Virus record (IMG/VR): IMGVR_UViG_3300022897_000003
Location: 1 to 57,417 of that record
DNA: 57,417 nucleotides
From: a virus
Lineage: Duplodnaviria > Caudoviricetes
Reading direction: 5' to 3' (one strand)
How positions within the stretch are numbered: the stretch's first letter is position 1; each line of letters opens with the position of its first letter. The translations under genes were made by a program, and so were the position numbers. Under the pieces are notes generated by a model. That model was given only the letters and a program-made list of their open reading frames with translations. It was not told the DNA's origin and made no database searches. This document shows, piece by piece, positions 29,990 to 56,775 of this stretch.

Positions 29990-30235
29990 TCAGCCGACCA
30001 GCTTGTTCTTCGCGATCCCCAACTTCGTCCACACCCGCCGGCCCAGCCGGACCCGCGAGCCCGCGCCCTTGCACCACCAGCACGCCCGGGAGAACCGGCC
30101 CTTGCGATGCCGGCCCATCCCTTTGCAGCACCAGCAGTCGACCAGCGGCCGCCACCAACACTGAAACGCCGTCCAGCCCAGCCACAGAAGTCCGGCCGTC
30201 ACGATCACGGCGATCACCTTCTCGATCTCTTTCAC
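29990..30235 (-). CDS. membrane-anchored protein with DnaJ-type CxxCxGxG zinc repeats
   Basis: TM helix, CWCCKGMG and CWWCKGAG, RVRLGRR; genes of this type commonly follow traB in actinomycete elements. Confidence 0.7.
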   Translation of the reverse strand: MKEIEKVIAVIVTAGLLWLGWTAFQCWWRPLVDCWCCKGMGRHRKGRFSRACWWCKGAGSRVRLGRRVWTKLGIAKNKLVG

Positions 30236-30259: not shown

Positions 30260-30429
30260 GGTCGCGGCATCAGTCGCGCGCCGACCCTGGGTCGCGTTGC
30301 CGCGACCGGTACCGCGACCTATCTGACCTGCACAGACATCGAAGGTCGCGGTCGCGGCACCCCCGTTTTGAAACCTCGTTTTCAGTCCCAGAAGGGGTCT
30401 GGAGGCAGGCAGAACGAGCTACCGCGACC
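30260..30429. repeat. clt-like locus: cluster of GGTCGCGG octamers (candidate TraB recognition sequences)
   Basis: Perfect GGTCGCGG at 30260, 30344, 30350 and CCGCGACC at 30300, 30312, 30422; near matches at 30272, 30290; immediately downstream of traB. Confidence 0.7.
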
Positions 30430-32479
30430 CGGCCAGCGCGCGTTGCTGCATCACTGCCTCGACGTCGTTGCGACGGCACCCCTTGAGGCCGACGCCCTCG
30501 ACCTTGACGTCCACACTGGGCACCTTCTCCGCTCGCACGAGGGCGCTGATCGCCTCCGCGGTGAGCCCCCGATACAGGGCCGGCTGCTCGGCGGCGAGGA
30601 TCTCCGCCAGTTGCTGCCACTGCAGGCCCGGCCGGTTCGTGTGCGCGAACACCCGGATAACGTCGGCCAGCACGTCCCGCTCGGGGTCGGTGCGCAGGTC
30701 CACCGCGGGCATGTCCCCGCGCATCCCCAGCGCCCGGGCGACGATCGCCTCCGCCGTCGGGTTGTCGATGTAGTTGGCCCGCACCGGCTGGTCCCGGCCG
30801 GCCAGGTAGCCCCAGCCCGCCCACGGGTTGTCGTCATCCGCCGGCGGCACGAACGTCGTCGGCCGGGCGCCCCGGCTGTAAGCGCCGGTACCCAGGATCA
30901 GGTCCGTCTCGACGTGCGAGGGCACGGCCAGGCAGAGCCGGTTGTGGACGTTAGAGCTGATGCCCTTCGGCACCGACTCCTTGTCAATGCGCTGGGTGGA
31001 CAGGATCAGGTGGATGCCCAGCGACCGGGACCGCTTGATGATGCTGGTCAGCAGCCGTTTCGCTTCCTTGCCGAGGTCAGGGTCGGTGATCAGTTCCTGG
31101 ATCTCGTCGAGGATCGCGAGCAGCGGGAACAGCGACGGGTCAGCCTGCGCGATCGCCCGGTTCAGCTTGTTCTGGCTGTTCAAACCCTTGACCGCCCACT
31201 TGCGGATCGCCGGGCCCCGCCGGTCGCACTCCTTGTCGAGCCACCGCAGGATCGCCATCGTCTGCTGCTTGGCCCGGTCGTCCGCGCCGGAGGCATACAT
31301 CTCCGGTAGGCACAGCGGTTCCATCGCGTCGAAGTCGCCGGAACCCTTGAGCTCCGAGATAACGAACCGCACCAGCGGGTCCAGCGCGGCTGCCAGGCCG
31401 ACGTTGCGCGCGGCCAGAGTCTTGCCGGATCCGACCATGCCGGCGAACATGCTGTTGCGCTCGGCCAGGCGCCAGGACAGGGCTCGCATACGCACGTCGT
31501 CGCCCCAAGGAAGCGGGCCGAAATAGTCGAGTTCTCCGCAGGTCAGCAGGGGTGAGACGGGTTGCTTCATCCGGTCCACCGGCCGGTCGGCCACCCACAC
31601 TGCGAGCACGCCAGGGTGAGCGCCGCGGACTGGCTCGGGCCACACCTGCGCGATCGGCAGCTGGAACCCGGCAGCCAGATAATCGCGCTGGTCGATGACG
31701 TTCTTCGCGATGATGCCGGTCGGCAGGGTCACCTCGGCCATGTAGCCAGGGCCGTCGCGATAGATCTCCTTGTTGAACTTGATCTTCTCGGGTTCCTTGA
31801 TCCCGGCACCCGACGCGACCAGCGCGGCCCTGGTCAGCTCGGCCGTGAGCCGCACGAACTTGCTGGCGTTGAACGCCGACTCGAGGATCGGTTTGCCGAC
31901 CGGCCGGCCGATGCGGGCCAGAATCGGCAAAGCGATCGCGAAGGCCAGCCACAGGGCCCACCACGGCGCGACGAACCACAGCAGCAAACCGCTGATCGAC
32001 GCCGCAAGCCAGCCGGCGAACAGCCCCATGAACCGGGCCTTGCGCGCCGCGGCCACCTTGTCAGCGATGAGCGGGCCGCGATCGACATCCTTAGCGGTCG
32101 CGGCCGCGGACATCAACTGAGACAGCTCAGGGTGGGTCGCCCACTTGAGTTGCCGGCCGAGAAGCTTCAGCAGCCCCCACGGGCCGTACAGAGCCATCTT
32201 GCCCAGGTAGACCGGGGATCGGGACAGCTCCCACAAGATGCCGTGAGAAGCCATTGCCAGCACCAGCGTCAGCAGCGAGTGCCGACCGGCCTTACTGCGC
32301 AGGCTGGCAGGCACGATGGGGCGCCGCTCGTCGGCCCGCGAGACAACGTCCGCAAAGGTGATCGAACGGGTCGGGGGGTCCACCGACCGATTCACGGAAT
32401 CAACGGTGACGACGACCGTTTCTGCATCGTCGGCCTCGGCCGGGCCTACCTCGTAGGCCTCGGGCAGCGTGTCTGCCAT
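30419..32479 (-). CDS. traB: TraB-like FtsK/SpoIIIE conjugative DNA translocase
   Basis: N-terminal TM segments, Walker A AGMVGSGKT, Walker B LAILDEIQEL, ILSTQR, C-terminal wHTH-like domain. Confidence 0.88.
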   Translation of the reverse strand: MADTLPEAYEVGPAEADDAETVVVTVDSVNRSVDPPTRSITFADVVSRADERRPIVPASLRSKAGRHSLLTLVLAMASHGILWELSRSPVYLGKMALYGPWGLLKLLGRQLKWATHPELSQLMSAAATAKDVDRGPLIADKVAAARKARFMGLFAGWLAASISGLLLWFVAPWWALWLAFAIALPILARIGRPVGKPILESAFNASKFVRLTAELTRAALVASGAGIKEPEKIKFNKEIYRDGPGYMAEVTLPTGIIAKNVIDQRDYLAAGFQLPIAQVWPEPVRGAHPGVLAVWVADRPVDRMKQPVSPLLTCGELDYFGPLPWGDDVRMRALSWRLAERNSMFAGMVGSGKTLAARNVGLAAALDPLVRFVISELKGSGDFDAMEPLCLPEMYASGADDRAKQQTMAILRWLDKECDRRGPAIRKWAVKGLNSQNKLNRAIAQADPSLFPLLAILDEIQELITDPDLGKEAKRLLTSIIKRSRSLGIHLILSTQRIDKESVPKGISSNVHNRLCLAVPSHVETDLILGTGAYSRGARPTTFVPPADDDNPWAGWGYLAGRDQPVRANYIDNPTAEAIVARALGMRGDMPAVDLRTDPERDVLADVIRVFAHTNRPGLQWQQLAEILAAEQPALYRGLTAEAISALVRAEKVPSVDVKVEGVGLKGCRRNDVEAVMQQRALAGSR

Positions 32480-32519
32480 GCTGTGACCTGCCTCTTTCTT
32501 CCTCGTGGAGCTAGGGGTG

Positions 32520-32561
32520 GCGGGGCGCGACCTGCTTGTCTAGGGCCGGGTCGCGCCCCGC
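32520..32561. promoter_or_regulatory. inverted repeat upstream of traB containing the CGCGACC/GGTCGCG core
   Basis: GCGGGGCGCGACC-N16-GGTCGCGCCCCGC. Confidence 0.6.
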
Positions 32562-32565
32562 GCAG

Positions 32566-32652
32566 TTACCAGTCGGTGCGCTCGCCGCGCCGCTGGGCCA
32601 TCCGGCGTAAGGTCTTCGCGCCTTCGCTAGTGGTGTTCTTGTCGCGCGCCAT
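32566..32652 (-). CDS. micro-protein, 28 aa
   Basis: MARDKNTTSEGAKTLRRMAQRRGERTDW; TGATG-coupled. Confidence 0.6.
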   Translation of the reverse strand: MARDKNTTSEGAKTLRRMAQRRGERTDW

Positions 32653-32828
32653 CAGCGCTCCCCGCCCCGCAGCTTGCGGGCCTCCCGGCGCACCGAGGCG
32701 GCTTCGCTCTCCGCCGCCCGGCGCCCGTCACCGGATCCCAGGGAGCGCTCGTAAGCGGCCCGCTTGTCCAGCTCAGCCGCGTACCGTTCCCTCGCCGCCG
32801 CCAAACGCAGACTCATCGAGTCCGTCAT
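32652..32828 (-). CDS. micro-protein, 58 aa
   Basis: MTDSMSLRLAAARERY...KLRGGER; TGATG at both ends. Confidence 0.7.
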   Translation of the reverse strand: MTDSMSLRLAAARERYAAELDKRAAYERSLGSGDGRRAAESEAASVRREARKLRGGER

Positions 32829-33025
32829 CAGCGCTTCCCGCCCTTCGGCTTCTTCGCCTCGTTGATGCGCCGGCGGATGTCCGCGGCAACCTCCGCGTCG
32901 GTCATGTGGTTGTAGCCGCGGCCGAGCGCACGCCAGCGCTCTTTCTCGAAGTCGTCGTCCTTGTTCGCCACGTCCTGGTTCTCCTGTCCGTCCTGGTCAG
33001 AATCGTCGTCGGGGATGTCCGTCAT
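32828..33025 (-). CDS. micro-protein, 65 aa, acidic N-terminus
   Basis: MTDIPDDDSDQDG...KPKGGKR; TGATG at both ends. Confidence 0.7.
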   Translation of the reverse strand: MTDIPDDDSDQDGQENQDVANKDDDFEKERWRALGRGYNHMTDAEVAADIRRRINEAKKPKGGKR

Positions 33026-33165
33026 CAGCCCCACAGCTTCCGGGCCAGGCGCTTGCCGCGCGTGTTGTTCATGGTCACCGGCCAGTCGACCTGCTTGACC
33101 CGCCGCTGCTTCCCGCCGCCTTCCTTGCCCGTCTCCAGGTCGATCGCCCGCACCGTCTTCGCCAT
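33025..33165 (-). CDS. micro-protein, 46 aa
   Basis: MAKTVRAIDLETGKEG...ARKLWG; TGATG at both ends. Confidence 0.7.
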   Translation of the reverse strand: MAKTVRAIDLETGKEGGGKQRRVKQVDWPVTMNNTRGKRLARKLWG

Positions 33166-33293
33166 CACCACTCACCCTTCGCGAGTTTCCGAACCGCCTC
33201 GATACGCTTCTGCCGCGCGGCTGCGGCCTGCTCAGCCTTGGTCTCCGGTTTCTCGGCCGGCTTCCTGCCGTCGGCCTTGTCGCCCTTCGCCAT
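33165..33293 (-). CDS. micro-protein, 42 aa
   Basis: MAKGDKADGRKPAEKPE...LAKGEW; TGATG at both ends. Confidence 0.7.
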   Translation of the reverse strand: MAKGDKADGRKPAEKPETKAEQAAAARQKRIEAVRKLAKGEW

Positions 33294-33439
33294 CACCGCA
33301 GCCCCTTGATCCGGACCCGGCGCACCGACTCCAGCCGGCCCGCCTTACGCAGCGCCTCGACCTGCTGCTGCGTGGCGCCCGTCATGGCCGAACCGCCCTT
33401 GGCCTGCTTGTACGTCACGACCTTGTTGCTGGTCGCCAT
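33293..33439 (-). CDS. micro-protein, 48 aa
   Basis: MATSNKVVTYKQAKGG...RIKGLR; TGATG at both ends. Confidence 0.7.
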   Translation of the reverse strand: MATSNKVVTYKQAKGGSAMTGATQQQVEALRKAGRLESVRRVRIKGLR

Positions 33440-33582
33440 CAGCGCTTCCCACCCTTCTGCTGGCTCTTCGCGTAGTCCCGGACCTCCTGGGCGTATTTCT
33501 CGGCCTTCGCCTTCGAGTCGCCCATCCGCAACGAGGCACGCCTCTTCTCCCGCGCGACCTGCTCGGTCACCGACTTCGCCAT
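33439..33582 (-). CDS. micro-protein, 47 aa
   Basis: MAKSVTEQVAREKRR...QQKGGKR; TGATG at both ends. Confidence 0.7.
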   Translation of the reverse strand: MAKSVTEQVAREKRRASLRMGDSKAKAEKYAQEVRDYAKSQQKGGKR

Positions 33583-33788
33583 CAGTTCTTCCCTCCCCTG
33601 CGGGTCACCGTGGTTGTCTCGGTGACCTCCGTCGTGCGCCGCTCGACAGTCCGGTTGAACCTCATCGGCACCGGCTTGCCGCCGTTCTTCGCCGCCAGCT
33701 CGCGCTGCAACCGCAACGCGTCCGCCGGCGTCGGGTTCTTCGGCACCTTCGCCAGCGCCGCGTCGATCTCACGCCTCGAAATCGCCAC
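33582..33788 (-). CDS. micro-protein, 68 aa
   Basis: VAISRREIDAALAKV...RRGGKN; GGGAG RBS. Confidence 0.7.
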   Translation of the reverse strand: MAISRREIDAALAKVPKNPTPADALRLQRELAAKNGGKPVPMRFNRTVERRTTEVTETTTVTRRGGKN

Positions 33789-33811
33789 TGCCGTTCTCCC
33801 GTTCTTCCTGC

Positions 33812-33916
33812 TCAGGCGGCCTTCGCCCGAGCCTTCAGCCGTTCCTGGGCTTCCTGGTGTTCCTTGCGCCGCGCCGCCTCACGATGCTCCAGACGACGCT
33901 GCAACGACGGGCTCAC
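33812..33916 (-). CDS. micro-protein, 34 aa
   Basis: VSPSLQRRLEHREAARRKEH...KAA; GTGA-coupled. Confidence 0.55.
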   Translation of the reverse strand: MSPSLQRRLEHREAARRKEHQEAQERLKARAKAA

Positions 33917-34050
33917 ACCCGCCGCCGGCCACGGCCCGCGGTCTGCGCCGCACGTTCCTGCTGCTTGACCTTCTGCTGCCGGGCCGCCCGGTCCGAGGTG
34001 CGCCGGTGGTTGGCGTTCGGGTCCTCGCCGGACCAGTTGCTCTGTGCCAT
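33913..34050 (-). CDS. micro-protein, 45 aa
   Basis: MAQSNWSGEDPNANH...GRRRV; AGGAG RBS. Confidence 0.6.
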   Translation of the reverse strand: MAQSNWSGEDPNANHRRTSDRAARQQKVKQQERAAQTAGRGRRRV

Positions 34051-34108
34051 GCTCGGTATCGCTCCTGTTCGATTCCGGGCCGCCCGCACAGCGGCCCACT
34101 CGGTGGAT

Positions 34109-34139
34109 GCGGTGGCCGGGCTCCACACCCGGCCACCGC
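34109..34139. terminator. hairpin within the micro-gene array
   Basis: GCGGTGGCCGGG-CTCCACA-CCCGGCCACCGC. Confidence 0.5.
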
Positions 34140-34152
34140 GCTGCTCAGCGGG

Positions 34153-34338
34153 TCAGCGATTGGTGACGCGAACCCAGTCCGAGCCGTGCTTCGGGTTACG
34201 CCGGGCGTCCTGCTGCATCTGCTGGCGCAGCTTGCTGACCTGCCCAGCGCTGGCGGACTTCGCCTTACGCACGTCGGGGTCCCGCAGGCTGTGGCTGCTA
34301 CCGCTGACCTGCTCGACCCGGAACTGCTTCTTCGCCAT
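34153..34338 (-). CDS. micro-protein, 61 aa
   Basis: MAKKQFRVEQV...; preceded by AAGGAGATCTGAG. Confidence 0.7.
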   Translation of the reverse strand: MAKKQFRVEQVSGSSHSLRDPDVRKAKSASAGQVSKLRQQMQQDARRNPKHGSDWVRVTNR

Positions 34339-34368
34339 CTCAGATCTCCTTCTCGTCGTTGTTGCTGG

Positions 34369-34521
34369 TCAGTGGCGCTTGTGAGCGGACGGCTGGCTCT
34401 TCTTCCAGGCCTCGCCCGCCTCAGCGACCTTCTTCGCCTGCTTCTTCCACGCCTGCTCGTCGTGCCGAAGCTTCTGCAACTTCGCCAGCTCCTGCCGCAC
34501 CGCGTCTTCCTTGCTCGCCAT
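34369..34521 (-). CDS. micro-protein, 50 aa
   Basis: MASKEDAVRQELAKL...; preceded by the identical AAGGAGATCTGAG. Confidence 0.7.
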   Translation of the reverse strand: MASKEDAVRQELAKLQKLRHDEQAWKKQAKKVAEAGEAWKKSQPSAHKRH

Positions 34522-34522
34522 C

Positions 34523-35038
34523 TCAGATCTCCTTAGCCATCGGACCGGCCACGAGCAGGCCGAACGCCTGACGGGCCACCACCGGGACCTCTTCCCGGAC
34601 GTCAATGCAATGCAGGTGCTCCAGCGCCACCCACCGGGCGCCGGACGCCTCATCGGCGGGCACCGTCACCGGCAGGCTGCTGTCAGCCGTACCGACGAAC
34701 AACAGGTCGATGTGGGTGTGCGCGGGCTCCGCGGGCTTACCCGGCCGCACCGGTTTCGCCGGCGCCGGGATCTCCGCGGTCACCCACGGGCTCGGGTGCC
34801 ACCGTTGCCCCGGCACATGCACCAGCTGCTGGCGCTGGATCACCGCAATCAGGCCGGTCTCCTCCCGCACCTCCCGCAGCGCCGCCTCCGCCGGTGTCTC
34901 ACCCGCATCGACGTGTCCGCCGGGGAACACCCACTTGCCGGTGGCGTTGTGGTGCACCAGCAGCACCTGCGGGCCGTCGAAGACGACCATCGACGCCGTC
35001 AGGTGACGGCTCTCGGGAGTCACCTCGGTGCGGCTCAT
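34523..35038 (-). CDS. Nudix hydrolase
   Basis: Nudix box GGHVDAGETPAEAALREVREETGL. Confidence 0.92.
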   Translation of the reverse strand: MSRTEVTPESRHLTASMVVFDGPQVLLVHHNATGKWVFPGGHVDAGETPAEAALREVREETGLIAVIQRQQLVHVPGQRWHPSPWVTAEIPAPAKPVRPGKPAEPAHTHIDLLFVGTADSSLPVTVPADEASGARWVALEHLHCIDVREEVPVVARQAFGLLVAGPMAKEI

Positions 35039-35223
35039 GAGCGGGGCTTCTTCGTGTAGGTCCCGTCCTTGCCGGCAACAGCCTTCGCCGAGTTGATCCC
35101 GCTCACCGTGAGTCGGGTGCCCTTGGAGGTCGTGACCTCGTAGGTCGCGTCGTCATCGGTCTTGGCGTAGTCGCGGGCGATCTTCTTCAACTCCCGCTTG
35201 GTGTATCCCTCGCCGTACGGCAC
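35035..35223 (-). CDS. small basic protein (62 aa)
   Basis: VPYGEGYTKRELKK...; ATGA overlap with Nudix gene. Confidence 0.65.
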   Translation of the reverse strand: MPYGEGYTKRELKKIARDYAKTDDDATYEVTTSKGTRLTVSGINSAKAVAGKDGTYTKKPRS

Positions 35224-35224
35224 C

Positions 35225-36316
35225 TCAGTTCCCCTTCTCGTTGTCGCCGGCCCGGACCAGATCCGGGACGTTTCCGTTGGTCTTGGCGCTTCGCAGAGCC
35301 CGGCCGACCGTGGCCGGGGACGTAGCGAGCAACCGGGCGATCTGGCCCTGGGAGAGACCGGGCGCAGCCGATTTGATGAAGCGGGCCGCCTCGTGCTTCT
35401 CCTGCGTCGTCCGGGCGTCCTCACTCACCGGCTGAGCAGGGATGAAGGGGGGCTGGGGGTGCGTCACCTTCACCGTCCGCAGGGAGCGCCGGTGAAGCAC
35501 CCGACGGCCCTTGCGTGAAGCGGCCACACGGACCGGAACGCCCGCGGGCGAAGCGGCCTCGTGCTGCTCCTCCTGCTTCGCGTCGAACCACAGAGCCCGG
35601 TCGACCCGTTCACGAACCGCGTCGATCACGCCGTCGTCAGCGGTGAGGCTCAGCCGAGCCAGTCGGTCCGCGCGCCGTTCGGTGAAGCGCTCCGACCCGT
35701 GCCGGCGCTTGAACTCCAGGCGCGTCATCTGCTGGATCAGCCGTTCACGGTGCACGGTCTCCACGTCACGCTCGCCCGGCTCGATCGCACCGATCAACAA
35801 CAGGAACCGGCGCGGCGTCCACCGCCACGACGACACCCCCTGGCGCCGCTTCGCCCCCTCCCCGAGGAGGCCGTCCCACCACGCGAGGGTCACCAGCAGC
35901 GGGATGAGCAGCCGCAGCACCGCCTCGGCGAACGAGTGCGCCACGCCGGCGGCCACCACGGCCATCGCCGACGCGACGATCCACGCCGTCCGGCCCGACC
36001 GGCCCGGGTGGCCGTACTCGCGCATCGCCCGCTTGGCCCGGATCATCGCCAGCACCAGCAGCGACTCCAGGACGAAGAACATCAGCAGGCGCAGGCTCGT
36101 CGGGAATCCGGCCCGGCCGGTCAGCACCCACACTGCCTCGGAGGACCAGCCCAGACCGACCAGCATCGTCAGGTTCGACAGCGGCCCATCCGGACGCTCG
36201 CTCCGGGCGAGCTTCCGCATCCGGCGGGCCACCCAGCCCAGCAGCAGCACGCTGACGACCAGGGCACCGATGAGGTACCCGGGGTGGACGAGCAAGGAGG
36301 CCGGGTTGAAAGTCAT
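35225..36316 (-). CDS. Spd-like (spread) multi-pass membrane protein with C-terminal HTH
   Basis: 4-5 TM helices, basic middle region, LSQGQIARLLATSPATVGRAL; architecture typical of SpdB2/DUF2637-type proteins. Confidence 0.65.
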   Translation of the reverse strand: MTFNPASLLVHPGYLIGALVVSVLLLGWVARRMRKLARSERPDGPLSNLTMLVGLGWSSEAVWVLTGRAGFPTSLRLLMFFVLESLLVLAMIRAKRAMREYGHPGRSGRTAWIVASAMAVVAAGVAHSFAEAVLRLLIPLLVTLAWWDGLLGEGAKRRQGVSSWRWTPRRFLLLIGAIEPGERDVETVHRERLIQQMTRLEFKRRHGSERFTERRADRLARLSLTADDGVIDAVRERVDRALWFDAKQEEQHEAASPAGVPVRVAASRKGRRVLHRRSLRTVKVTHPQPPFIPAQPVSEDARTTQEKHEAARFIKSAAPGLSQGQIARLLATSPATVGRALRSAKTNGNVPDLVRAGDNEKGN

Positions 36317-36803: not shown

Positions 36804-36985
36804 CGGGCACCCCCGGTCATCTCGTCGATGTGCTCCACGGCCTCGAAGTAGTTGGTGAGGATCTGGTGCGCCTCATTCAGCTTCTCGACCGCGGCCATCT
36901 CCCGGTCGGTCACCACGGTGCGGATGTCCGCCACCGCCGTCTGCGCGGCCGCGTCCCGCAGCCAGGCGGTGATCTGCGCGCTCAT
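36800..36985 (-). CDS. hypothetical protein
   Basis: MSAQITAWLRD...; ATGA coupling. Confidence 0.6.
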   Translation of the reverse strand: MSAQITAWLRDAAAQTAVADIRTVVTDREMAAVEKLNEAHQILTNYFEAVEHIDEMTGGAR

Positions 36986-37284
36986 CGGGTCGCCGCCGGC
37001 AGGCTGGTCGTGATGCTGTCGAACTCGGCCCAGGTCACGTGCCACCACTCGACGTCGCAGCTGTCGGCGCCGTCCTCACCCAGCTCGAGGTGCAGCACGA
37101 ACGCGCAATCGCCGTCGCAGTCACCCTCGTCCTCCGGTGTGTCCTCGCACTGCGCGACCGTGATCAAGGTCTGCCAGTACGGCGGGCGGTCGTCGTTCGC
37201 CACGTTGATGCGGTCGCCGGCCTGCGCAACCCTCTTCTCGAACGGGATGGGGCGGGTGTAGAGGGTCTCGGTCAGCGTCTCCAC
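36982..37284 (-). CDS. acidic hypothetical protein, first gene of the transfer operon
   Basis: AAGGAGG RBS before GTG 37284. Confidence 0.65.
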   Translation of the reverse strand: METLTETLYTRPIPFEKRVAQAGDRINVANDDRPPYWQTLITVAQCEDTPEDEGDCDGDCAFVLHLELGEDGADSCDVEWWHVTWAEFDSITTSLPAATR

Positions 37285-37318: not shown

Positions 37319-37409
37319 GTGTATGGACACAGTAGCTCCGCGTGTATGGACACGCAAGGCCGTTGTGTATGGACACAGTGCCAACTAGGATGGCGGCATG
37401 TATGGACAC
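37319..37409. promoter_or_regulatory. four operator repeats GTGTATGGACAC overlapping the leftward promoter
   Basis: Copies at 37319, 37342, 37365, 37398 (1 mismatch); minus-strand TTGCGT(37357-52)-N17-TACTGT(37334-29). Confidence 0.85.
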
Positions 37410-37619
37410 TCCGATAAGATCGCCCGCGTGCCGAACCCCGAGAACTTCACGCCTATCCGGTCTATCCGGATCGCTGCCGCCACGTGGGACACAGCGAAGG
37501 CGCGGGCGCGTGAGCAGGGGAAATCCATGAGCGAGCTCGTCCGCGAATTCCTCGACTGGTGGCTGCGGGTGCCTGGCGCGAAGTTGCCGAAACGACCACC
37601 GCCACGGAGCGAGAAGTAG
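37398..37619 (+). CDS. ribbon-helix-helix repressor (Kor-like; start 37398 or 37428)
   Basis: TPIRSIRI...WDTAKARAREQGKSMSELVREFL; divergent from the transfer operon. Confidence 0.8.
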   Translation: MYGHSDKIARVPNPENFTPIRSIRIAAATWDTAKARAREQGKSMSELVREFLDWWLRVPGAKLPKRPPPRSEK

Positions 37620-39976: not shown

Positions 39977-40918
39977 TCAGAGGTCGCCCATCACGTTGAC
40001 CCGGTCGTAGGCCCGCCGTGCCCTGGCCGCCCGGGCCGAGGCGCCGTAGTGGCGTAGCATTTGCGGGGACTCCCAGCCGTTGAGCTCCATCAGGTCACCC
40101 TCAGCGCCGCCTGCGTCCAGCCAGTTGTGGCTGAAGGTGTGCCGGAACAGGTGCGGGTGGATGTCGAGACCGAGCCGCTCGCCGCGCCGCTCGATGATCT
40201 GCCGGATCCCGGACGGGGTCATCGGCACCCGCCGCCTCGTGCCCAGCCATAGAACGTCCAGCTCTGCTGCGGCATGGCTAGCGCGGATGCGCAGGTAGCG
40301 ATCCAGGGCCAAGGCGCACTTGTGGTCGAACTTCAGCTTGCGGGTCTTGTCGCCTTTGCCGGTCACCACTACGGTGCGGTCCTTGACGTCGACGTCGGCG
40401 AGGCGGATCTTCGTGACCTCCGACAACCGGCCGCCGGTGCATGCGAACAGCCGGAGCAGAGCGGCGTCGCGGCGTGATTCGAAATCGCGGCCGGCCTCAG
40501 CAGACTTGATGAGCCGGCGCATGTCGTCCAGCTCGATCACCGGGGGCGGCTTGCTACCGATCTTCGGTGGTGGCGGCGGCTTGAAACGGGCGTAGGGGTT
40601 GGGCAGGTCCTCCTCCTCGGAGAACCACTTGAAGAATGCCTGCAGGCATCGGCCGATGTTGTTGCGGTAGGACTGGGCGTAGCCGATCTCGTGCATGTGC
40701 AGGAAGAACAGGCGCAGCTGGTCGCGGTCGACCTGGTCCCAGCGCTGCGCCTGCTTCTCGCGGGTGAGCCAGCCGGCGAACCACCGGACGGCGTCGCCGT
40801 ACATCTCACGTGTCCGTTCGGAGCGTTCGGCGACGTGCAGGACCAGGTCGAACGACTCGATGAACGAGGCCAGCGCCGGCGGCGCCGGCGGGACTTCTCC
40901 CCTGTGACTGGCCATCAT
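39977..40918 (-). CDS. int: tyrosine integrase (short, no arm-binding domain)
   Basis: TGGRLSE, GKGDKTR, HPHLFRHTF, GW..PQMLRHY; adjacent attP. Confidence 0.93.
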   Translation of the reverse strand: MMASHRGEVPPAPPALASFIESFDLVLHVAERSERTREMYGDAVRWFAGWLTREKQAQRWDQVDRDQLRLFFLHMHEIGYAQSYRNNIGRCLQAFFKWFSEEEDLPNPYARFKPPPPPKIGSKPPPVIELDDMRRLIKSAEAGRDFESRRDAALLRLFACTGGRLSEVTKIRLADVDVKDRTVVVTGKGDKTRKLKFDHKCALALDRYLRIRASHAAAELDVLWLGTRRRVPMTPSGIRQIIERRGERLGLDIHPHLFRHTFSHNWLDAGGAEGDLMELNGWESPQMLRHYGASARAARARRAYDRVNVMGDL

Positions 40919-53092: not shown

Positions 53093-53806
53093 GTGACCCA
53101 GCCCCAAGACGCCAACTCGATCCTGATGGGCAGCGGATCGCCTGCCTTCAAGTTCGACCAGATCGGCACGATCGCCACCGGCACCGTCGTCGCCGAGCCC
53201 ACCTCGTCGCAGCAGACGGACTTCCGGACGAAGGTTCCGGAGACCTGGCCCGACGGCTCGCCGAAGATGCAGGTCCTGGTCCAGATGTCGACCACGCTGC
53301 GCGACCCGCAGAAGCCCGAGGACGACGGCACCCGGACCCTTTACATCAAGGGCAAGGAACTGACCACCGCGGTCCGCAACGCCGTCCGGGCCTCCGGCGC
53401 CAACGGCATCCACACCGGCGGACAGCTCACCGTCCAGTACGTCGCCGACGGCCAGGCCGAGCAGGGACTCAACCCGCCGAAGCTCTACGTCGCCCAGTAC
53501 CAGCCGCCGGCCGTCTCCTTCGCCGGTGTCACCGCGCCGCAGAGCGCTCCGACGGTTCAGCAGCCGGTCGCTCAGCAGCAGTACGCGGCCCCCGTGCAGC
53601 AGCAGCCGGCCGCCCAGGCTCCGGCCCAGCAGTACCAGCAGCCCGTCCAGCAGGTGGCGCAGCAGCCGGTTCAGCAGGGCCTGCCGAACACCTCTCCGCC
53701 GCCGCCCCCGGGCGTCGACCCGGGCATGTGGTCCCGGCTCACTCCGGCCCAGCAGCAGGCGGTCGCAGCGGCCCAGACGGCCCAGGCGGCCCAGCCCGCC
53801 TTCTGA
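53093..53806 (+). CDS. ssDNA-binding/recombination-associated protein with Gln/Pro-rich tail
   Basis: FKF...QQTDF...WPDGSPKMQ...PKLY; disordered tail ending PAF; follows the exonuclease. Confidence 0.6.
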   Translation: MTQPQDANSILMGSGSPAFKFDQIGTIATGTVVAEPTSSQQTDFRTKVPETWPDGSPKMQVLVQMSTTLRDPQKPEDDGTRTLYIKGKELTTAVRNAVRASGANGIHTGGQLTVQYVADGQAEQGLNPPKLYVAQYQPPAVSFAGVTAPQSAPTVQQPVAQQQYAAPVQQQPAAQAPAQQYQQPVQQVAQQPVQQGLPNTSPPPPPGVDPGMWSRLTPAQQQAVAAAQTAQAAQPAF

Positions 53807-53831
53807 CACCCGCAGCCACTCCAGCACCACA

Positions 53832-53866
53832 GCGACCCCGCCGAGCCGCCGGTTCGGCGGGGTCGC
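53832..53866 (+). terminator. hairpin after SSB-like gene
   Basis: GCGACCCCGCCGAGCC-GCC-GGTTCGGCGGGGTCGC. Confidence 0.6.
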
Positions 53867-53919
53867 CGCCCCTCACCGCAAGACATCGACACCGATAACG
53901 ATCTTCAGGGAGCCCTGAG

Positions 53920-56775
53920 TTGAGCCTCACCGACGGATTCGACTCCGCCACGGCGCGACGGTGGCTGGGCATCCTGCACGGTGACTCCCCAGGTCACCTG
54001 CTCATCTGCTCCACCGACGACTGGGCCGGGCGCGCCTTCCTGCCGAACCAGCTCGACCAGGCGGTCAGCTACATCGCCGGTCTCGACGCGGTTCGCAAGG
54101 AAGGCATCTACCTGCGCATCACGAGCGTCAGCACCCTGCCCGAGCCGGGCAAGCGTGGAAGCGCCGCCGACAGCGCCGCCCTGCCAGCGCTCTGGGCAGA
54201 CCTCGACCTGGCCGGCCCGGGCCACGAACTCTGGTGTCCGCGCGACTGCACGGTGAACCATGCCCACCTCTGCCCGGCGGACTGCGACCTCGAGCACCGA
54301 CACATCGTCCGCGAGCTTCCACCCGACGAGACCGCCGGCCGGGCCATCATCGCCGCTACCGGGCTTCCCGAGCCGACCATCTGGGTCCACTCCGGCGGTG
54401 GCCTCTATCCGATCTGGCTGCTCACCGAGCCGCACACGATCACCGAGGCCAACCTCGATGAGGCCAGACGCCTCGCCAAGGACTGGCAGCGCGTCATCGA
54501 GCACACCGCGGCCTCACTCGGCTGGTACTACGGCCGCGGCGTAGGCGACCTCGCTCGGGTCTTGCGCATCCCCGGCACTGTCAACCGCAAGGAAGGCCTG
54601 GCTCGGCCCTGCCGCATCTCTTCGGCCAGCGCCTATCGGTACACGTTCCGCCACCTGGTCGACGCCCTGGACGTTGCGATCGCCCGCATCGACCCCATCA
54701 CCGACGTTGGAGCGTCAGCGCCTACCTCCAACGTCGTCGCCCCCGGCGTCGGACCGGTCGTCGGCACGCCCGTGGCCCGGCCGGCGGGCGCGGTCAGCCC
54801 GCTCGACGACTACTCCGCGCGCACCAGCTGGGCCGACATCCTCGTCCCGGCCGGCTGGCACCAGCACTACGAGCAGGACGGCGTCACTTACTGGACCCGG
54901 CCCGGCAAGTCCACCGGCACCAGCGCGAGCACCAACGCGCTCGGCACCGACCGGCTGCACGTCTTCACCACCAGTGCCACGCCGCTCGAGGGAAACGAGT
55001 CCTACTCCAAAGGCGGGGCGTACGCGGCGCTCTACCACGGCGGCGACCACTCGGCAGCCGCCAGCGAGCTCGCAGCAGCCGGATACGGCACACCCCTGCC
55101 CGACCCCGGCATTGCCCACCGCGAGGCGCTGATGGACATCCTGGGCGGGCCGGTGCCCGATCCGCCGGCCGCTCCGGCGCCGACCGGATTGCGCGTCTGG
55201 ACGCCCGAGATCGACGCCTCCAACCCGGCCATCTCCGCCGACTGGCTGCGGACCGAAGCCGGGCGGGGCAAACTGTCCGGGCTCTTCAAGCGGGGCGGCT
55301 TCGTCGTGCACACACCGCGTGAAGGCGAAGGTGGCTACGTCCCACTGACGGAGAACGACGGCGACGAGGACGGCCCCGCGCAGATCCACAACGTCACCGA
55401 CTCGACCCTGTCCTCGCGCATCAGCTACACCTACGGCGTCTTCCGGATGGTTAAGCGGGGCGAGGACTACGAGCCCGTCCCGGCACTGTTCCCGCGCTCG
55501 GCGGCTCGCACCGCTCTCGACGTGCCCGACATGCTGCCCAACCTGCGCAGCCTGCGCGGCGTCATCCACTCGCCCGTCTTCCGGCCCGACGGCAGTCTCA
55601 TCTCCACGCCCGGCTACGACGAGAAGACCCGACTGCTTTACCTGCCCGAGCCCGGCCTCGACATCCCGCGGGTGCCCGAGGAGCCGGCCGCCGGCGACGT
55701 CACCGACGCCGTGAAGCTGATCCTGGAGATGATCGACGGCTTCCCCTTCAAGAACGACCACTACCGGGCCAACTTCCTCGGCGCCCTGATCACCCCGCTG
55801 CTGCGGGCCATGTCGCCGCCGCCGTACAAGCTGCACGCCATCGAGGCCCACCAGCCCGGCTCCGGCAAGACCCTGCTCGCCAACGTCGCCCGGCACATTC
55901 ACGGCGGCGTCTTCCGCGCCGAGATGCCCGGCGACGACTCGGAGCTGCGCAAGCAGGTCACCACCATCCTGTCGGTCACCACCGGGCCCGTCGTCGTCAT
56001 CGACAACGTCTCCGGCGTGCTCAAGAGCAGCGCCCTGGCCGGCCTGCTCACCTCGGACCAGTGGGACGACCGGCTGCTGGGCGGCAACGAGTGGGTCAAC
56101 GCCGTCAACGACCGGCTGTGGACCATCACCGGCAACAACATCAGCATCGGCGGCGACCTCCCGCGGCGCACCCTGCGCACCGTCATCGACCCGGGCGTGC
56201 CGAACCCCGAGAACCGCACCGGCTTCGCGATCGCCGATCTCGAGCGGTGGGTCAAGGACCGGCGCGGCGAGCTGCTGCACGCGCTGCTCGTCATCGTCCG
56301 ATCCTGGGTCGCCGCGGGCCGCCCGATGCCGCCGGAGCGCAGCAGCGACGGATACGCGCGCTGGGTGCGCACGCTCGAGGGCATCCTCGGCAACGCCGGC
56401 ATCCCGGGCGGCTTCGACCACCCGTCGACCCACATCGAGATCGGCAGCGACGACGACGAGTGGGGACTGTTCCTCGCAGCCGCACACGGGGCGGTGGGGG
56501 ACAGCCTGTGGACCGCGAAGGAACTTCTCGGCAACGTCGACCAGGGCGGCATCATCTCGACCGGCCCGATCCCCGTCGACGCTCTGCCGGGCGAGCTCGC
56601 GGAGAAGGCGATCCGGCATCCGAACGGCCCGCCCGGCATCGCCAAGAGCCTCGGACGGTGGTTGAACAACCGCGACGGACGCTGGGCAAGCGGATACGTC
56701 ATCCGCTGCGCAGGCCAAACCCGCGAACGCATCAAGCAGTGGCAAATCACCACCAATCCGGGCGGCCCCTCATGA
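53920..56775 (+). CDS. primase-helicase (RepB'/AEP-like primase fused to a P-loop ATPase)
   Basis: LWADLD, VHSGGG, ARVLRIPGTVN, WTRPGK, Walker A PGSGKT, IDN, TGNN. Confidence 0.85.
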   Translation: MSLTDGFDSATARRWLGILHGDSPGHLLICSTDDWAGRAFLPNQLDQAVSYIAGLDAVRKEGIYLRITSVSTLPEPGKRGSAADSAALPALWADLDLAGPGHELWCPRDCTVNHAHLCPADCDLEHRHIVRELPPDETAGRAIIAATGLPEPTIWVHSGGGLYPIWLLTEPHTITEANLDEARRLAKDWQRVIEHTAASLGWYYGRGVGDLARVLRIPGTVNRKEGLARPCRISSASAYRYTFRHLVDALDVAIARIDPITDVGASAPTSNVVAPGVGPVVGTPVARPAGAVSPLDDYSARTSWADILVPAGWHQHYEQDGVTYWTRPGKSTGTSASTNALGTDRLHVFTTSATPLEGNESYSKGGAYAALYHGGDHSAAASELAAAGYGTPLPDPGIAHREALMDILGGPVPDPPAAPAPTGLRVWTPEIDASNPAISADWLRTEAGRGKLSGLFKRGGFVVHTPREGEGGYVPLTENDGDEDGPAQIHNVTDSTLSSRISYTYGVFRMVKRGEDYEPVPALFPRSAARTALDVPDMLPNLRSLRGVIHSPVFRPDGSLISTPGYDEKTRLLYLPEPGLDIPRVPEEPAAGDVTDAVKLILEMIDGFPFKNDHYRANFLGALITPLLRAMSPPPYKLHAIEAHQPGSGKTLLANVARHIHGGVFRAEMPGDDSELRKQVTTILSVTTGPVVVIDNVSGVLKSSALAGLLTSDQWDDRLLGGNEWVNAVNDRLWTITGNNISIGGDLPRRTLRTVIDPGVPNPENRTGFAIADLERWVKDRRGELLHALLVIVRSWVAAGRPMPPERSSDGYARWVRTLEGILGNAGIPGGFDHPSTHIEIGSDDDEWGLFLAAAHGAVGDSLWTAKELLGNVDQGGIISTGPIPVDALPGELAEKAIRHPNGPPGIAKSLGRWLNNRDGRWASGYVIRCAGQTRERIKQWQITTNPGGPS

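What the first reader, a model, noticed from the sequence alone, without database searches (positions are those of the whole stretch)
32566..34521. Array of 12 tiny ORFs (28-68 aa) chained by conserved TGATG junctions directly upstream of traB
Seen: manual translation tiles about 2 kb almost completely with 12 micro-ORFs, most absent from the ORF track. Eight consecutive ORFs are joined by seven stop-start overlaps, all reading TGATGRCG (33582, 33439, 33293, 33165, 33025, 32828, 32652). Three junctions share GGG(A/G)AGCGCTGATG. The products look mutually unrelated, are mostly Lys/Arg-rich and helical-looking, mostly start MA or MT, and often end GGKR/GGER/GGKN because they carry the next gene's SD. 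Inference: a modular peptide cassette array co-expressed with the transfer machine. It could encode anti-defence or DNA-coating factors for recipient entry, or Kil/pock effectors, and could be shuffled by recombination at the junction micro-homologies.
Basis: partly seen in the sequence, partly recalled or inferred. Interest (0 to 1): 0.85.

Follow-up and report, generated by a model that had tools for sequence, protein, structure and literature searches.

The report
Twelve micro-genes before a phage traB
A temperate phage of a high-GC soil actinomycete carries a tightly chained row of eleven or twelve very small, strongly basic protein genes just ahead of a plasmid-type DNA-transfer motor gene; the genes look real but their job is unknown.

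Summary
Twelve minus-strand ORFs of 28-68 aa tile 32566-34521.

Codon statistics support eleven ORFs. Eight beat all 83 decoy ORFs, three fall in the decoys' top 5%, and s04 (33812-33916) is doubtful.

The window is a temperate tailed actinophage, not a plasmid. The array lies in a leftward operon with a four-segment membrane protein, a Nudix gene, a Streptomyces-type TraB and clt-like 8-mer repeats.

The products are hydrophilic, Cys-free and basic in 11 of 12. One folds as a confident helical hairpin.

They are not all unrelated. s06, s10 and s11 share a C-terminal module, which explains the three shared junctions.

Almost nothing related was found: no family match, and none of the twelve appears in 166 traB loci. 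One peptide, s05, has a single 67%-identical relative.

Among 95 comparable traB loci, no run of small ORFs exceeds 3.

A covarying hairpin and leader, conserved before traB in actinomycete elements, separates the array from traB.

Best reading: real orphan accessory micro-genes in a variable slot, amplified in part by duplication. Function and co-expression with traB are not shown.

The parts
34523..35038 (-). Nudix hydrolase gene (171 aa); its stop lies 1 nt before the s01 start (TGAGATG)
   Evidence: Pfam PF00293, E 1.4e-21, 77.4 bits against a cut-off of 21.1; sequence
34369..34521 (-). s01, 50 aa, pI 10.0
   Evidence: GC3 0.90; coding score 26.6, 0 of 83 decoys as high
34153..34338 (-). 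s02, 61 aa, pI 11.6; its start region duplicates the Nudix/s01 junction (repeat D1, 75% over 44 nt)
   Evidence: The only database cluster is a 98%-identical variant
34109..34139 (-). Perfect 12-bp GC hairpin with a 7-nt loop, in the 102-nt gap after s02
   Evidence: the repeat finder I13; fold z -3.75, 0 of 200 shuffles fold as well
33913..34050 (-). s03, 45 aa, pI 11.9
   Evidence: GC3 0.89; coding score 12.5, 2 of 83 decoys as high
33812..33916 (-). s04, 34 aa, GTG start overlapping the s03 stop (GTGA); a doubtful gene
   Evidence: GC3 0.74; coding score 3.1, 17 of 83 decoys as high; not picked by the caller
33582..33788 (-). s05, 68 aa, GTG start; two short helices and a disordered basic tail
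   Evidence: One homologue, P0123 (67 aa, 67% identity, E 1.2e-17), among 1.84 billion representatives. AF2 pLDDT 68, helices 5-13 and 21-34
33439..33582 (-). s06, 47 aa; paralogue of the s10/s11 C-terminal module
33293..33439 (-). s07, 48 aa, pI 11.7
   Evidence: GC3 0.94; 0 of 83 decoys as high
33165..33293 (-). s08, 42 aa
   Evidence: GC3 0.81; 0 of 83 decoys as high
33025..33165 (-). s09, 46 aa
   Evidence: GC3 0.96; 0 of 83 decoys as high
32828..33025 (-). s10, 65 aa; acidic N-terminal half and a basic C-terminal module; the only acidic product (pI 4.9)
   Evidence: Best coding score, 39.0. No relative but itself among 5.8 billion clustered proteins
32652..32828 (-). s11, 58 aa; predicted helical hairpin; paralogue of s10 and s06
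   Evidence: AF2 single sequence: pLDDT 93.3, helices 4-30 and 33-54. s10-s11 alignment z 6.4, 0 of 300 shuffles as high
32566..32652 (-). s12, 28 aa; last micro-gene, in the position that DUF6257 holds in Streptomyces-type loci
   Evidence: GC3 0.86; 4 of 83 decoys as high. Position compared
32477..32571 (-). Conserved pre-traB leader: 13-bp perfect hairpin (arms 32520-32532 and 32549-32561), then the SD region and the traB ATG
   Evidence: A covariance model built from 50 other loci, window excluded, hits here at 37.9 bits, E 5.1e-7. The next hit in the window scores 20.2 bits. The repeat finder I5
30419..32479 (-). traB-like FtsK/SpoIIIE-family translocase, 686 aa
   Evidence: PHROG 1358 E 1e-29; tblastn to actinomycete plasmid Tra genes including NC_007431; 251 relatives at E <= 1e-20
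30260..30429 (.). clt-like cluster: 6 exact copies of GGTCGCGG/CCGCGACC in both orientations, one inside the last traB codons and five in the next 170 nt
   Evidence: These are 6 of the window's 19 copies, in 0.3% of its length
35225..36316 (-). 363-aa basic membrane protein with four hydrophobic segments; counterpart of the DUF2637/SpdB2-type protein that abuts traB in relatives
   Evidence: hydropathy heuristic; homologue in L010; relatives carry DUF2637
35035..35223 (-). 62-aa basic hydrophilic ORF between the membrane protein and Nudix

Best explanation
Shown:
- The stretch is a real operon segment of eleven (perhaps twelve) translationally coupled micro-genes.
- Their products are 28-68 aa, hydrophilic, Cys-free and strongly basic. 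At least some are helical.
- The segment occupies a highly variable slot in the leftward accessory operon of a temperate actinophage. The slot lies between a Nudix gene and the conserved hairpin leader of a Streptomyces-type traB.
- Part of the array grew by tandem duplication and divergence of a unit that carried its own SD and TGATG junction. The units concerned are s06, s10 and s11, and the start regions of s01 and s02.

Inferred:
- Ribosomes finishing one ORF restart on the next, so the chain s05-s12 is made from one mRNA.
- The two GC hairpins act in the RNA, as partial terminators or as processing or stability sites. They would set expression of the array apart from that of traB.
- The products most likely act as accessory factors of the TraB-type DNA transfer and spread module, as the diverse spd genes do on plasmids. 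They would do so by binding nucleic acid or the cell envelope through their charge.

My odds are about 0.85 that these are real coupled genes in a variable slot, and about 0.35 that they work with TraB.
For: Coding:
- GC3 is 0.81-0.96 in 11 of 12 ORFs, and it follows each frame change.
- 8 of 12 score above all 83 decoys, and my caller picks 11 of 12.
- SD-like sites match the level of the phage's other genes.
- s05 has an equal-length relative at 67% identity that also ends RRGG.
- s10 and s02 are on record as called genes.

Coupling: seven clustered TGATGRCG junctions. Elsewhere in the window 4-nt overlaps dominate, 24 against 6 one-nt overlaps.

Duplication:
- The s10-s11 alignment has z 6.4, and s06-s11 z 3.4.
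- Junction repeats D1-D3.

Variable slot:
- 0 of 12 peptides are found in 166 traB loci.
- In L011, L090 and L007 a DUF2637 protein abuts traB directly.
- L010 has other genes in the slot.
- The longest run of small ORFs in 95 loci is 3.

Link to the transfer module:
- Same strand and same cluster as the four-segment membrane protein, Nudix, traB and the clt-like repeats.
- 28 Streptomyces-type loci hold a small basic DUF6257 protein in the place of s12, followed by the same hairpin leader.
[quoted passage not shown] In pSVH1 some lie upstream of traB in one presumed transcript.
Against: - There is no expression data of any kind.
- There are no relatives from which to measure selection, apart from one homologue of one peptide.
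- The literature calls Spd proteins 'often hydrophobic' (PMC2440964). None of the twelve has a hydrophobic segment; GRAVY runs from -0.58 to -1.81.
- The closest TraB relatives that could be examined lack the array altogether, so it cannot be needed for TraB function as such.
- The hairpin between s12 and traB could be a terminator that uncouples the two.
- High-charge, low-complexity peptides are the kind of product that young or spurious genes give.
- s04 fails the coding test.
Confidence: 0.6

Rival explanations
1. The micro-genes are ordinary phage accessory genes that merely landed in a permissive slot. They would serve host takeover, superinfection exclusion or counter-defence, and would have nothing to do with TraB-type DNA transfer.
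For: - The window is a phage.
- The array is absent from the nearest TraB relatives examined, and it is an orphan.
- s10 has a strongly acidic N-terminal half.
Against: - Outside the array the phage has no run of more than 2 genes of 70 aa or less. Among 95 traB loci no run of ORFs of 80 aa or less exceeds 3. The array is therefore not the phage's usual gene pattern.
- A small basic protein recurs in exactly this position before the conserved hairpin leader in 28 loci that lie in bacterial genome or metagenome contigs.
Confidence: 0.3
2. One or more of the small basic proteins regulate traB. They would bind the conserved hairpin leader as RNA or DNA and set read-through or translation, in the manner of a Kor function that tames a lethal tra gene.
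For: - The leader and its hairpin are conserved and covary across 57 distinct sequences. The window copy matches a model built without it.
- The gene just before the leader encodes a small basic protein both here and in 28 Streptomyces-type loci.
- PMC4447253 states that unregulated TraB expression is toxic and needs a repressor.
Against: - Twelve genes are far more than a regulator needs.
- s12 gives no significant match to DUF6257.
- Relatives in which a DUF2637 gene overlaps traB have no leader at all.
- The loop motif was not tested for binding.
Confidence: 0.07
3. The ORFs are not functional genes. They would be remains of a decayed larger gene, or chance or very young ORFs in purine-rich DNA.
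For: - Near-total lack of homologues.
- Biased K/R/E/A composition.
- s04 fails the coding test, and s03, s11 and s12 are only in the top 5% of decoys.
Against: - All seven frame changes go the same way, through exact stop/start overlaps with SD-like sites. Decay would scatter frameshifts.
- tblastx of the stretch against 166 loci gives a top single match of 37.3 bits, against 39.6 bits for the reversed control. No larger ancestral gene is visible.
- GC3 far above GC2 in each frame implies constraint on codon positions 1 and 2.
- s05 is conserved at 67% over its full length.
Confidence: 0.04
4. The real gene is the + strand ORF 31562-33475 (637 aa).
For: It is the longest ORF in the interval.
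Against: - GC1/2/3 is 0.80/0.56/0.68, with no third-position bias, and the product is rich in R, P and L.
- It runs antisense through about 900 nt of traB.
- My caller did not pick it.
Confidence: 0.01

Closest known systems
spd (spread) operons of Streptomyces conjugative plasmids, such as pSVH1 spdB3-spd79-spdB2-orf108-traB (PMC4447253, passages read)
   Same: [quoted passage not shown]
- Too diverse to find homologues on other elements.
- Placed next to, and in pSVH1 upstream of, traB.
- A four-segment membrane protein lies in the same cluster.
   Different: - Twelve genes rather than 3 to 7.
- None is hydrophobic, and 11 of 12 are strongly basic.
- The host replicon is a tailed temperate phage.
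- No pock or spread phenotype is known.
DUF6257 (PF19771): a 54-68 aa basic protein directly upstream of traB in Streptomyces-type integrated elements
   Same: - Small, basic and hydrophilic, with a K/R-rich C-terminus.
- Sits immediately before the same hairpin leader, 84-100 nt ahead of the traB start (86 nt in the window).
   Different: - No significant sequence match of any of the twelve. The best is s12, at E 0.035 in a 12-sequence search, with no hit to the Pfam model.
- DUF6257 is one gene, not a chain.
- DUF6257 itself has no known function, and 0 papers mention it.
Runs of small orphan genes in actinobacteriophage genomes (PMC7474061, abstract start seen in the listing)
   Same: Small, unannotatable, tightly packed phage genes with overlapping stops and starts.
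   Different: - The run length (11-12 against at most 2 elsewhere in this phage), the uniform charge and the uniform one-nt TGATG junctions are all unusual. The rest of the phage mostly uses 4-nt overlaps.
- The array sits inside a plasmid-type transfer module.
pSAM2 Pif, a Nudix protein that limits redundant transfer (PMC2440964, passage read)
   Same: A Nudix gene in the same cluster as traB. 14 of the 166 other traB loci searched also have a Nudix match, 8 of them upstream of traB on the same strand.
   Different: Only the domain is shown here. The immunity function is untested, and the micro-genes have no counterpart in the pSAM2 description I read.

Membership tests
Streptomyces-type conjugative Tra/TraB translocase module | FtsK/SpoIIIE-family ATPase related to plasmid Tra proteins | tested here: met
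   - PHROG 1358, E 1e-29.
- tblastn to 87 plasmid records, 49 of them Streptomyces, including NC_007431 at 29.9% identity and E 1e-23.
- The curated models are below cut-off: Pfam PF01580 gives 22.8 bits against 24, and NCBIfam plasmid_TraB gives 22.9 bits against 800.
Streptomyces-type conjugative Tra/TraB translocase module | clt: short direct or inverted repeats beside, and partly within, the 3' end of the tra gene (as described for pWTY27, pJV1 and pSVH1 in PMC3583192, passages read) | tested here: met
   Six exact GGTCGCGG/CCGCGACC copies lie in 30260-30429. One is in the last traB codons and five are in the next 170 nt. Binding by TraB was not tested.
Streptomyces-type conjugative Tra/TraB translocase module | Actual transfer of double-stranded DNA between hyphae | not testable with these tools
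   This needs mating assays.
spd (spread) genes | [quoted passage not shown] | tested here: met
spd (spread) genes | Products small and often hydrophobic or membrane-bound | tested here: not met
   GRAVY runs from -0.58 to -1.81 for all 12. Hydrophobic segments occur only in neighbours: the 363-aa, 113-aa, 52-aa and 81-aa ORFs.
spd (spread) genes | Needed for pock formation or intramycelial spread | not testable with these tools
   This needs genetics in a host.
DUF6257 (PF19771) | Match to the family profile | tested here: not met
   - 10 peptides scanned at E <= 1 and s04 and s12 at E <= 0.1: no DUF6257 hit.
- My own profile of 28 members gives s12 E 0.035 and 4.0 bits in a search of 12 sequences.
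DUF6257 (PF19771) | Position directly before the hairpin leader of traB | tested here: met
   The gap from s12 to traB is 86 nt. In the 28 member loci it is 84-100 nt.
   37.9 bits, E 5.1e-7, full length, at 32477-32571 (-). The runner-up scores 20.2 bits. Rfam holds no such family.
Nudix hydrolase (Pif-like) | Nudix domain | tested here: met
   PF00293, E 1.4e-21. Immunity function not testable.

The most novel reading that the evidence does not exclude
This phage lineage uses a plasmid-type TraB/clt system to pass its genome between hyphae without making virions. The twelve basic micro-proteins are its payload: small helical escorts that coat the transferred double-stranded DNA or disarm recipient defences. 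The slot before the conserved hairpin leader is a site where such micro-genes are amplified and exchanged through their shared SD-TGATG junctions.
Probability: 0.1. Interest if true: 0.8.

Novelty: new variant of a known kind. Interest (0 to 1): 0.4.

Why it matters
If the micro-proteins work with TraB, they give a compact set of twelve candidates for the least understood part of actinomycete conjugation: what accompanies the double-stranded DNA, or prepares the recipient.

They would also show that tailed phages of mycelial bacteria have taken over that route.

Apart from the array, the covarying hairpin leader found before traB in 57 distinct sequences from many actinomycete elements is a concrete, testable control element. 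I found it neither in Rfam nor in the papers I searched.

If the array proves to be ordinary phage cargo, it is still an unusually clean case of micro-gene amplification by duplication of a gene-plus-junction unit.

Tried and rejected
Homologue searches that found nothing:
- blastn of 32480-34700 against isolated phages.
- tblastn of the 12 peptides against 166 traB loci at E <= 1e-3.
- PHROGs and Pfam for 10 peptides. The best hits were phrog_16633 at E 0.0058 for s10 and Pfam hits at E >= 0.09.
- Pfam for s04 and s12, and NCBIfam for s02, s05, s07, s09 and s10.
- The word-index protein search for s10 and s02 returned only themselves or a 98% variant.
- P0123 against phage and plasmid records.
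- Viral-contig scans with TraB, P0003, P0123 and alignment A3 added no locus with the array.

Decayed-gene test: tblastx without a complexity filter gave a flood of compositional matches, which I discarded. With the filter, the real top match was 37.3 bits and the reversed control gave 39.6 bits.

Weak leads I do not rely on:
- A profile of s05 plus P0123 gave only matches of about 20 bits in 11 of 401 genomes of the family of G001. The four inspected lie in MerR/SoxR-like regulators (family named from recall of the sequence pattern); the similarity is short and at chance level for that many genomes.
- The ESM Atlas gave no usable feature hit for s10. Its own model is poor, with pLDDT 0.58.
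- Foldseek of the s11 model against PDB gave 0 matches at E <= 0.001, only generic helical hairpins.
- A sub-threshold Rfam match to PtaRNA1 at 34044-34143 (+), 29.2 bits against a gathering score of 47, is taken as chance.
- s12 as a truncated DUF6257 is not significant.

Idea rejected: that the pre-traB hairpin arms are inverted copies of the element's own clt repeat.
- In the window the arms match the 8-mer at 7 of 8 positions.
- In the Streptomyces-type loci the repeated 8-mers after traB (CCGGTTTC/CGAAACCG, 3-5 copies) are absent from the stems. L065, for example, has 3 or more mismatches.
- My stem extraction in that script failed for many loci, so the test is partial.

Sequencing runs:
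- No RNA holder was listed.
- The four runs laid are contigs only. They cover the array in near-identical pieces, and some bins have no cover.
- One difference (33208 T>C, depth 2.5) is too little for any test of selection.

Not run: complex prediction, because I do not claim that any pair binds.

Closed or failed:
The contigs of the 76-87% TraB relatives and of P0123 could therefore not be fetched.
- Supplementary files of papers were not opened.


Full report
**What the window is.** The 57,417-base window is a virus record of IMG/VR, rated about 70% complete. It has about 69% G+C. It encodes a large terminase, a portal and a tape-measure protein on the + strand, a primase/polymerase, a Dda-like helicase and an exonuclease at the right end, a tyrosine integrase (39977-40918, -) and an HTH_3 protein. 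It is therefore a temperate tailed phage of a high-GC actinomycete.

The finding lies in a block of minus-strand genes, roughly 37284 down to 29618, between the lysis region and the immunity and integrase region.

**Checking the observation.** Reading the minus strand and listing ORFs confirms twelve ORFs of 28-68 aa that cover all but 155 of the 1956 bases.
- TGATGRCG occurs 16 times in the window, against 5.10 +/- 2.09 expected; 0 of 100 shuffles reach 16.
- Nudix-s01 (TGAGATG) and s03-s04 (GTGA) are also coupled.

**Are they genes?**
- Third-position GC is 0.81-0.96 in 11 of 12 ORFs and follows every change of frame. s04 has 0.74, and another frame scores higher there.
- A codon log-odds caller trained on this window's long genes picks 11 of 12.
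- I compared the scores with 83 decoy ORFs of 25-70 aa that lie in wrong frames of long genes. Eight of the twelve score above every decoy. s03 is matched or beaten by 2 decoys, s11 by 3, s12 by 4 and s04 by 17.
- SD-like pairing before the starts runs from -4.7 to -11.6 kcal/mol. That is like the phage's other genes (median -7.1, n = 96) and unlike shuffled 20-mers (median -3.5). The anti-SD probe was a generic sequence I recalled.
- s05 has one relative, P0123, among 1.84 billion representatives. It is 67 aa, 67% identical and colinear, and it also ends RRGG.
- The + strand ORF 31562-33475 has GC3 0.68 and runs antisense across traB, so it is a shadow ORF.

I conclude that eleven are real genes and s04 is doubtful.

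**The products.**
- Eleven of twelve have pI 10.0-11.9. s10 has pI 4.9 because of an acidic N-terminal half.
- GRAVY runs from -0.58 to -1.81, and none contains Cys.
- s11 folds from its single sequence as a helical hairpin, with pLDDT 93.3.
- s05 gives two short helices and a disordered basic tail, with pLDDT 68.
- Structure searches gave only generic helical hairpins.

**They are not all unrelated.** I scored all 66 pairs against 300 shuffles each.
- s10-s11 stands out at z 6.4, with 0 of 300 shuffles as high.
- s06-s11 has z 3.4.
- The three share a C-terminal module of about 35 aa that ends GG(K/E)R.
- The three junctions reading GGG(A/G)AGCGCTGATG are the ends of exactly these three genes (repeat families D2 and D3).
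- The start region of s02 repeats the Nudix/s01 junction, at 75% over 44 nt (D1).
- A profile of the module finds only its three members among 36,224 ORF segments of the window and all loci.
- The array's one-nt overlaps differ from the rest of the phage, where 24 four-nt overlaps stand against 6 one-nt overlaps among 73 same-strand neighbour pairs.

Duplication of a gene together with its junction explains these facts better than recombination between unrelated cassettes.

**Relatives and the slot.** The 686-aa product of 30419-32479 matches actinomycete plasmid Tra genes. It has 251 relatives at E <= 1e-20 among 8000 scored candidates. By my count, 28 of the 120 listed sit on contigs of 41-62 kb, which is phage size. 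Named members come from Actinoplanes and Micromonospora.

I fetched 166 traB loci.
- None of the twelve peptides is found in them.
- In L011, L090 and L007 (63-68% TraB identity) a DUF2637 membrane protein with a C-terminal HTH overlaps traB directly.
- L010 has a homologue of the window's 363-aa protein, then ORFs of 52, 149 (DUF3307) and 71 aa.
- Among the 95 loci with at least 2.5 kb upstream, the longest run of same-strand ORFs of 80 aa or less, next to traB or anywhere within 4 kb, is 3.
- Outside the array this phage has no run of ORFs of 70 aa or less longer than 2.

The slot is therefore variable, and the length of this array is exceptional.

**What lies between the array and traB.** The 86-nt gap holds a perfect 13-bp GC hairpin.
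- The same kind of hairpin, with a CAAGC-like loop and a conserved leader ending AGAGGCAGG...CAGCATG, lies before traB in 57 other loci whose gap is 55-110 nt.
- In that alignment 87.4% of cells pair, and 11 of 13 pairs show changes on both sides.
- The covariation score is 0.343, against 0.110 +/- 0.013 in shuffles (0 of 500 as high) and 0.05-0.14 when the partner is slid. The structure was taken from one member, which favours it somewhat.
- A covariance model built from 50 of the 57, without the window, finds 32477-32571 (-) at 37.9 bits and E 5.1e-7. The next hit scores 20.2 bits.
- Rfam has no such family. My one paper search on the topic showed none.
- In 28 Streptomyces-type loci the gene just before this leader is DUF6257, a 54-68 aa basic protein of unknown function. 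No paper in the library names it.
- s12 holds that position but does not match the family.
- A second perfect hairpin (34109-34139) follows s02.

**The module around it.**
- Six exact copies of GGTCGCGG/CCGCGACC lie in 30260-30429, one inside the last traB codons. This is the arrangement described for clt sites in PMC3583192.
- The 363-aa protein has four hydrophobic segments. SpdB2 is reported to have four as well (PMC4447253).
- A Nudix gene precedes the array. Pif of pSAM2 is a Nudix protein (PMC2440964).
- PMC4447253 also notes SpdB2 homologues on some actinophages.
- FtsK-like genes are listed, without a known role, in Streptomyces phage papers.

**Interpretation.**
- Shown: the genes are real, coupled, basic and partly paralogous. 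They are orphans in a variable slot of a plasmid-type transfer module carried by a phage.
- Inferred: translation of s05-s12 proceeds by restart, the hairpins act in the RNA, and the products have an accessory role with TraB.
- The main rival is ordinary phage cargo unrelated to TraB.
- Expression could not be addressed: no RNA holder was listed, and the DNA runs hold a near-identical copy.
- The array is best filed as a new variant of the spd-like or phage micro-gene pattern, of moderate interest. The conserved traB leader may be the more general result.

Noticed in passing
window 32477-32571 (-); also L010, L071 and 55 other loci, directly upstream of traB: A conserved hairpin and leader lie before traB across Streptomyces, Actinoplanes, Streptosporangiales and metagenome loci. 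The stem is 13 bp with many compensatory changes, the loop carries a CAAGC-like motif, and the SD region is conserved. The element is not in Rfam.
   Followed up: yes
window 30260-30429: Six exact copies of GGTCGCGG/CCGCGACC, in both orientations, lie at and just after the traB stop. This is a candidate clt. Other loci show their own repeated 8-mers after traB, for example CCGCTACC 8 times in L010 and CCGGTTTC/CGAAACCG 3-5 times in Streptomyces-type loci.
   Followed up: partly
whole window; L004 (CP052773.1, Pseudonocardia alni plasmid pPaSha2): A lineage of temperate tailed phages carries a plasmid-type traB between the lysis and integrase/immunity regions. The 41.9-kb circular 'plasmid' pPaSha2 has holin, Bet, integrase and HTH genes together with DUF2637-traB, so it looks like a phage-plasmid of the same kind.
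   Followed up: partly
window 37320-37410: Four direct copies of TGTATGGACAC lie at spacings of 23, 23 and 33 nt. They sit between the first gene of the leftward operon (36982-37284, -) and a divergent 73-aa ORF (37398-37619, +), and the last copy overlaps that ORF's ATG. These are candidate operators of the operon that holds the array and traB.
   Followed up: no
window 53622-54021: Six copies of the 8-mer CGGCCCAG, or its complement, lie within 400 nt around the start of the primase/polymerase gene (53920). They may be origin iterons.
   Followed up: no
window 29990-30235 (-); L004 10005-10247: An 81-aa protein follows traB. It has one hydrophobic segment and a Cys-rich basic stretch. An 80-aa protein of similar make-up (hydrophobic stretch, then a Cys-rich basic stretch) follows traB in pPaSha2, judged by eye and not aligned.
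   Followed up: no
L022-L087 and other loci, ORF directly upstream of traB: In 28 Streptomyces-type loci DUF6257 (PF19771) always sits 84-100 nt before traB. This is a positional rule for a family with no known function and no paper in the library.
   Followed up: partly
window 33582-33788 (s05), residues 2-34: There is a weak likeness, about 20 bits, to the helix-loop-helix stretch before the dimerisation helix of MerR/SoxR-like regulators of Micromonosporaceae. It is at chance level for 401 genomes.
   Followed up: partly
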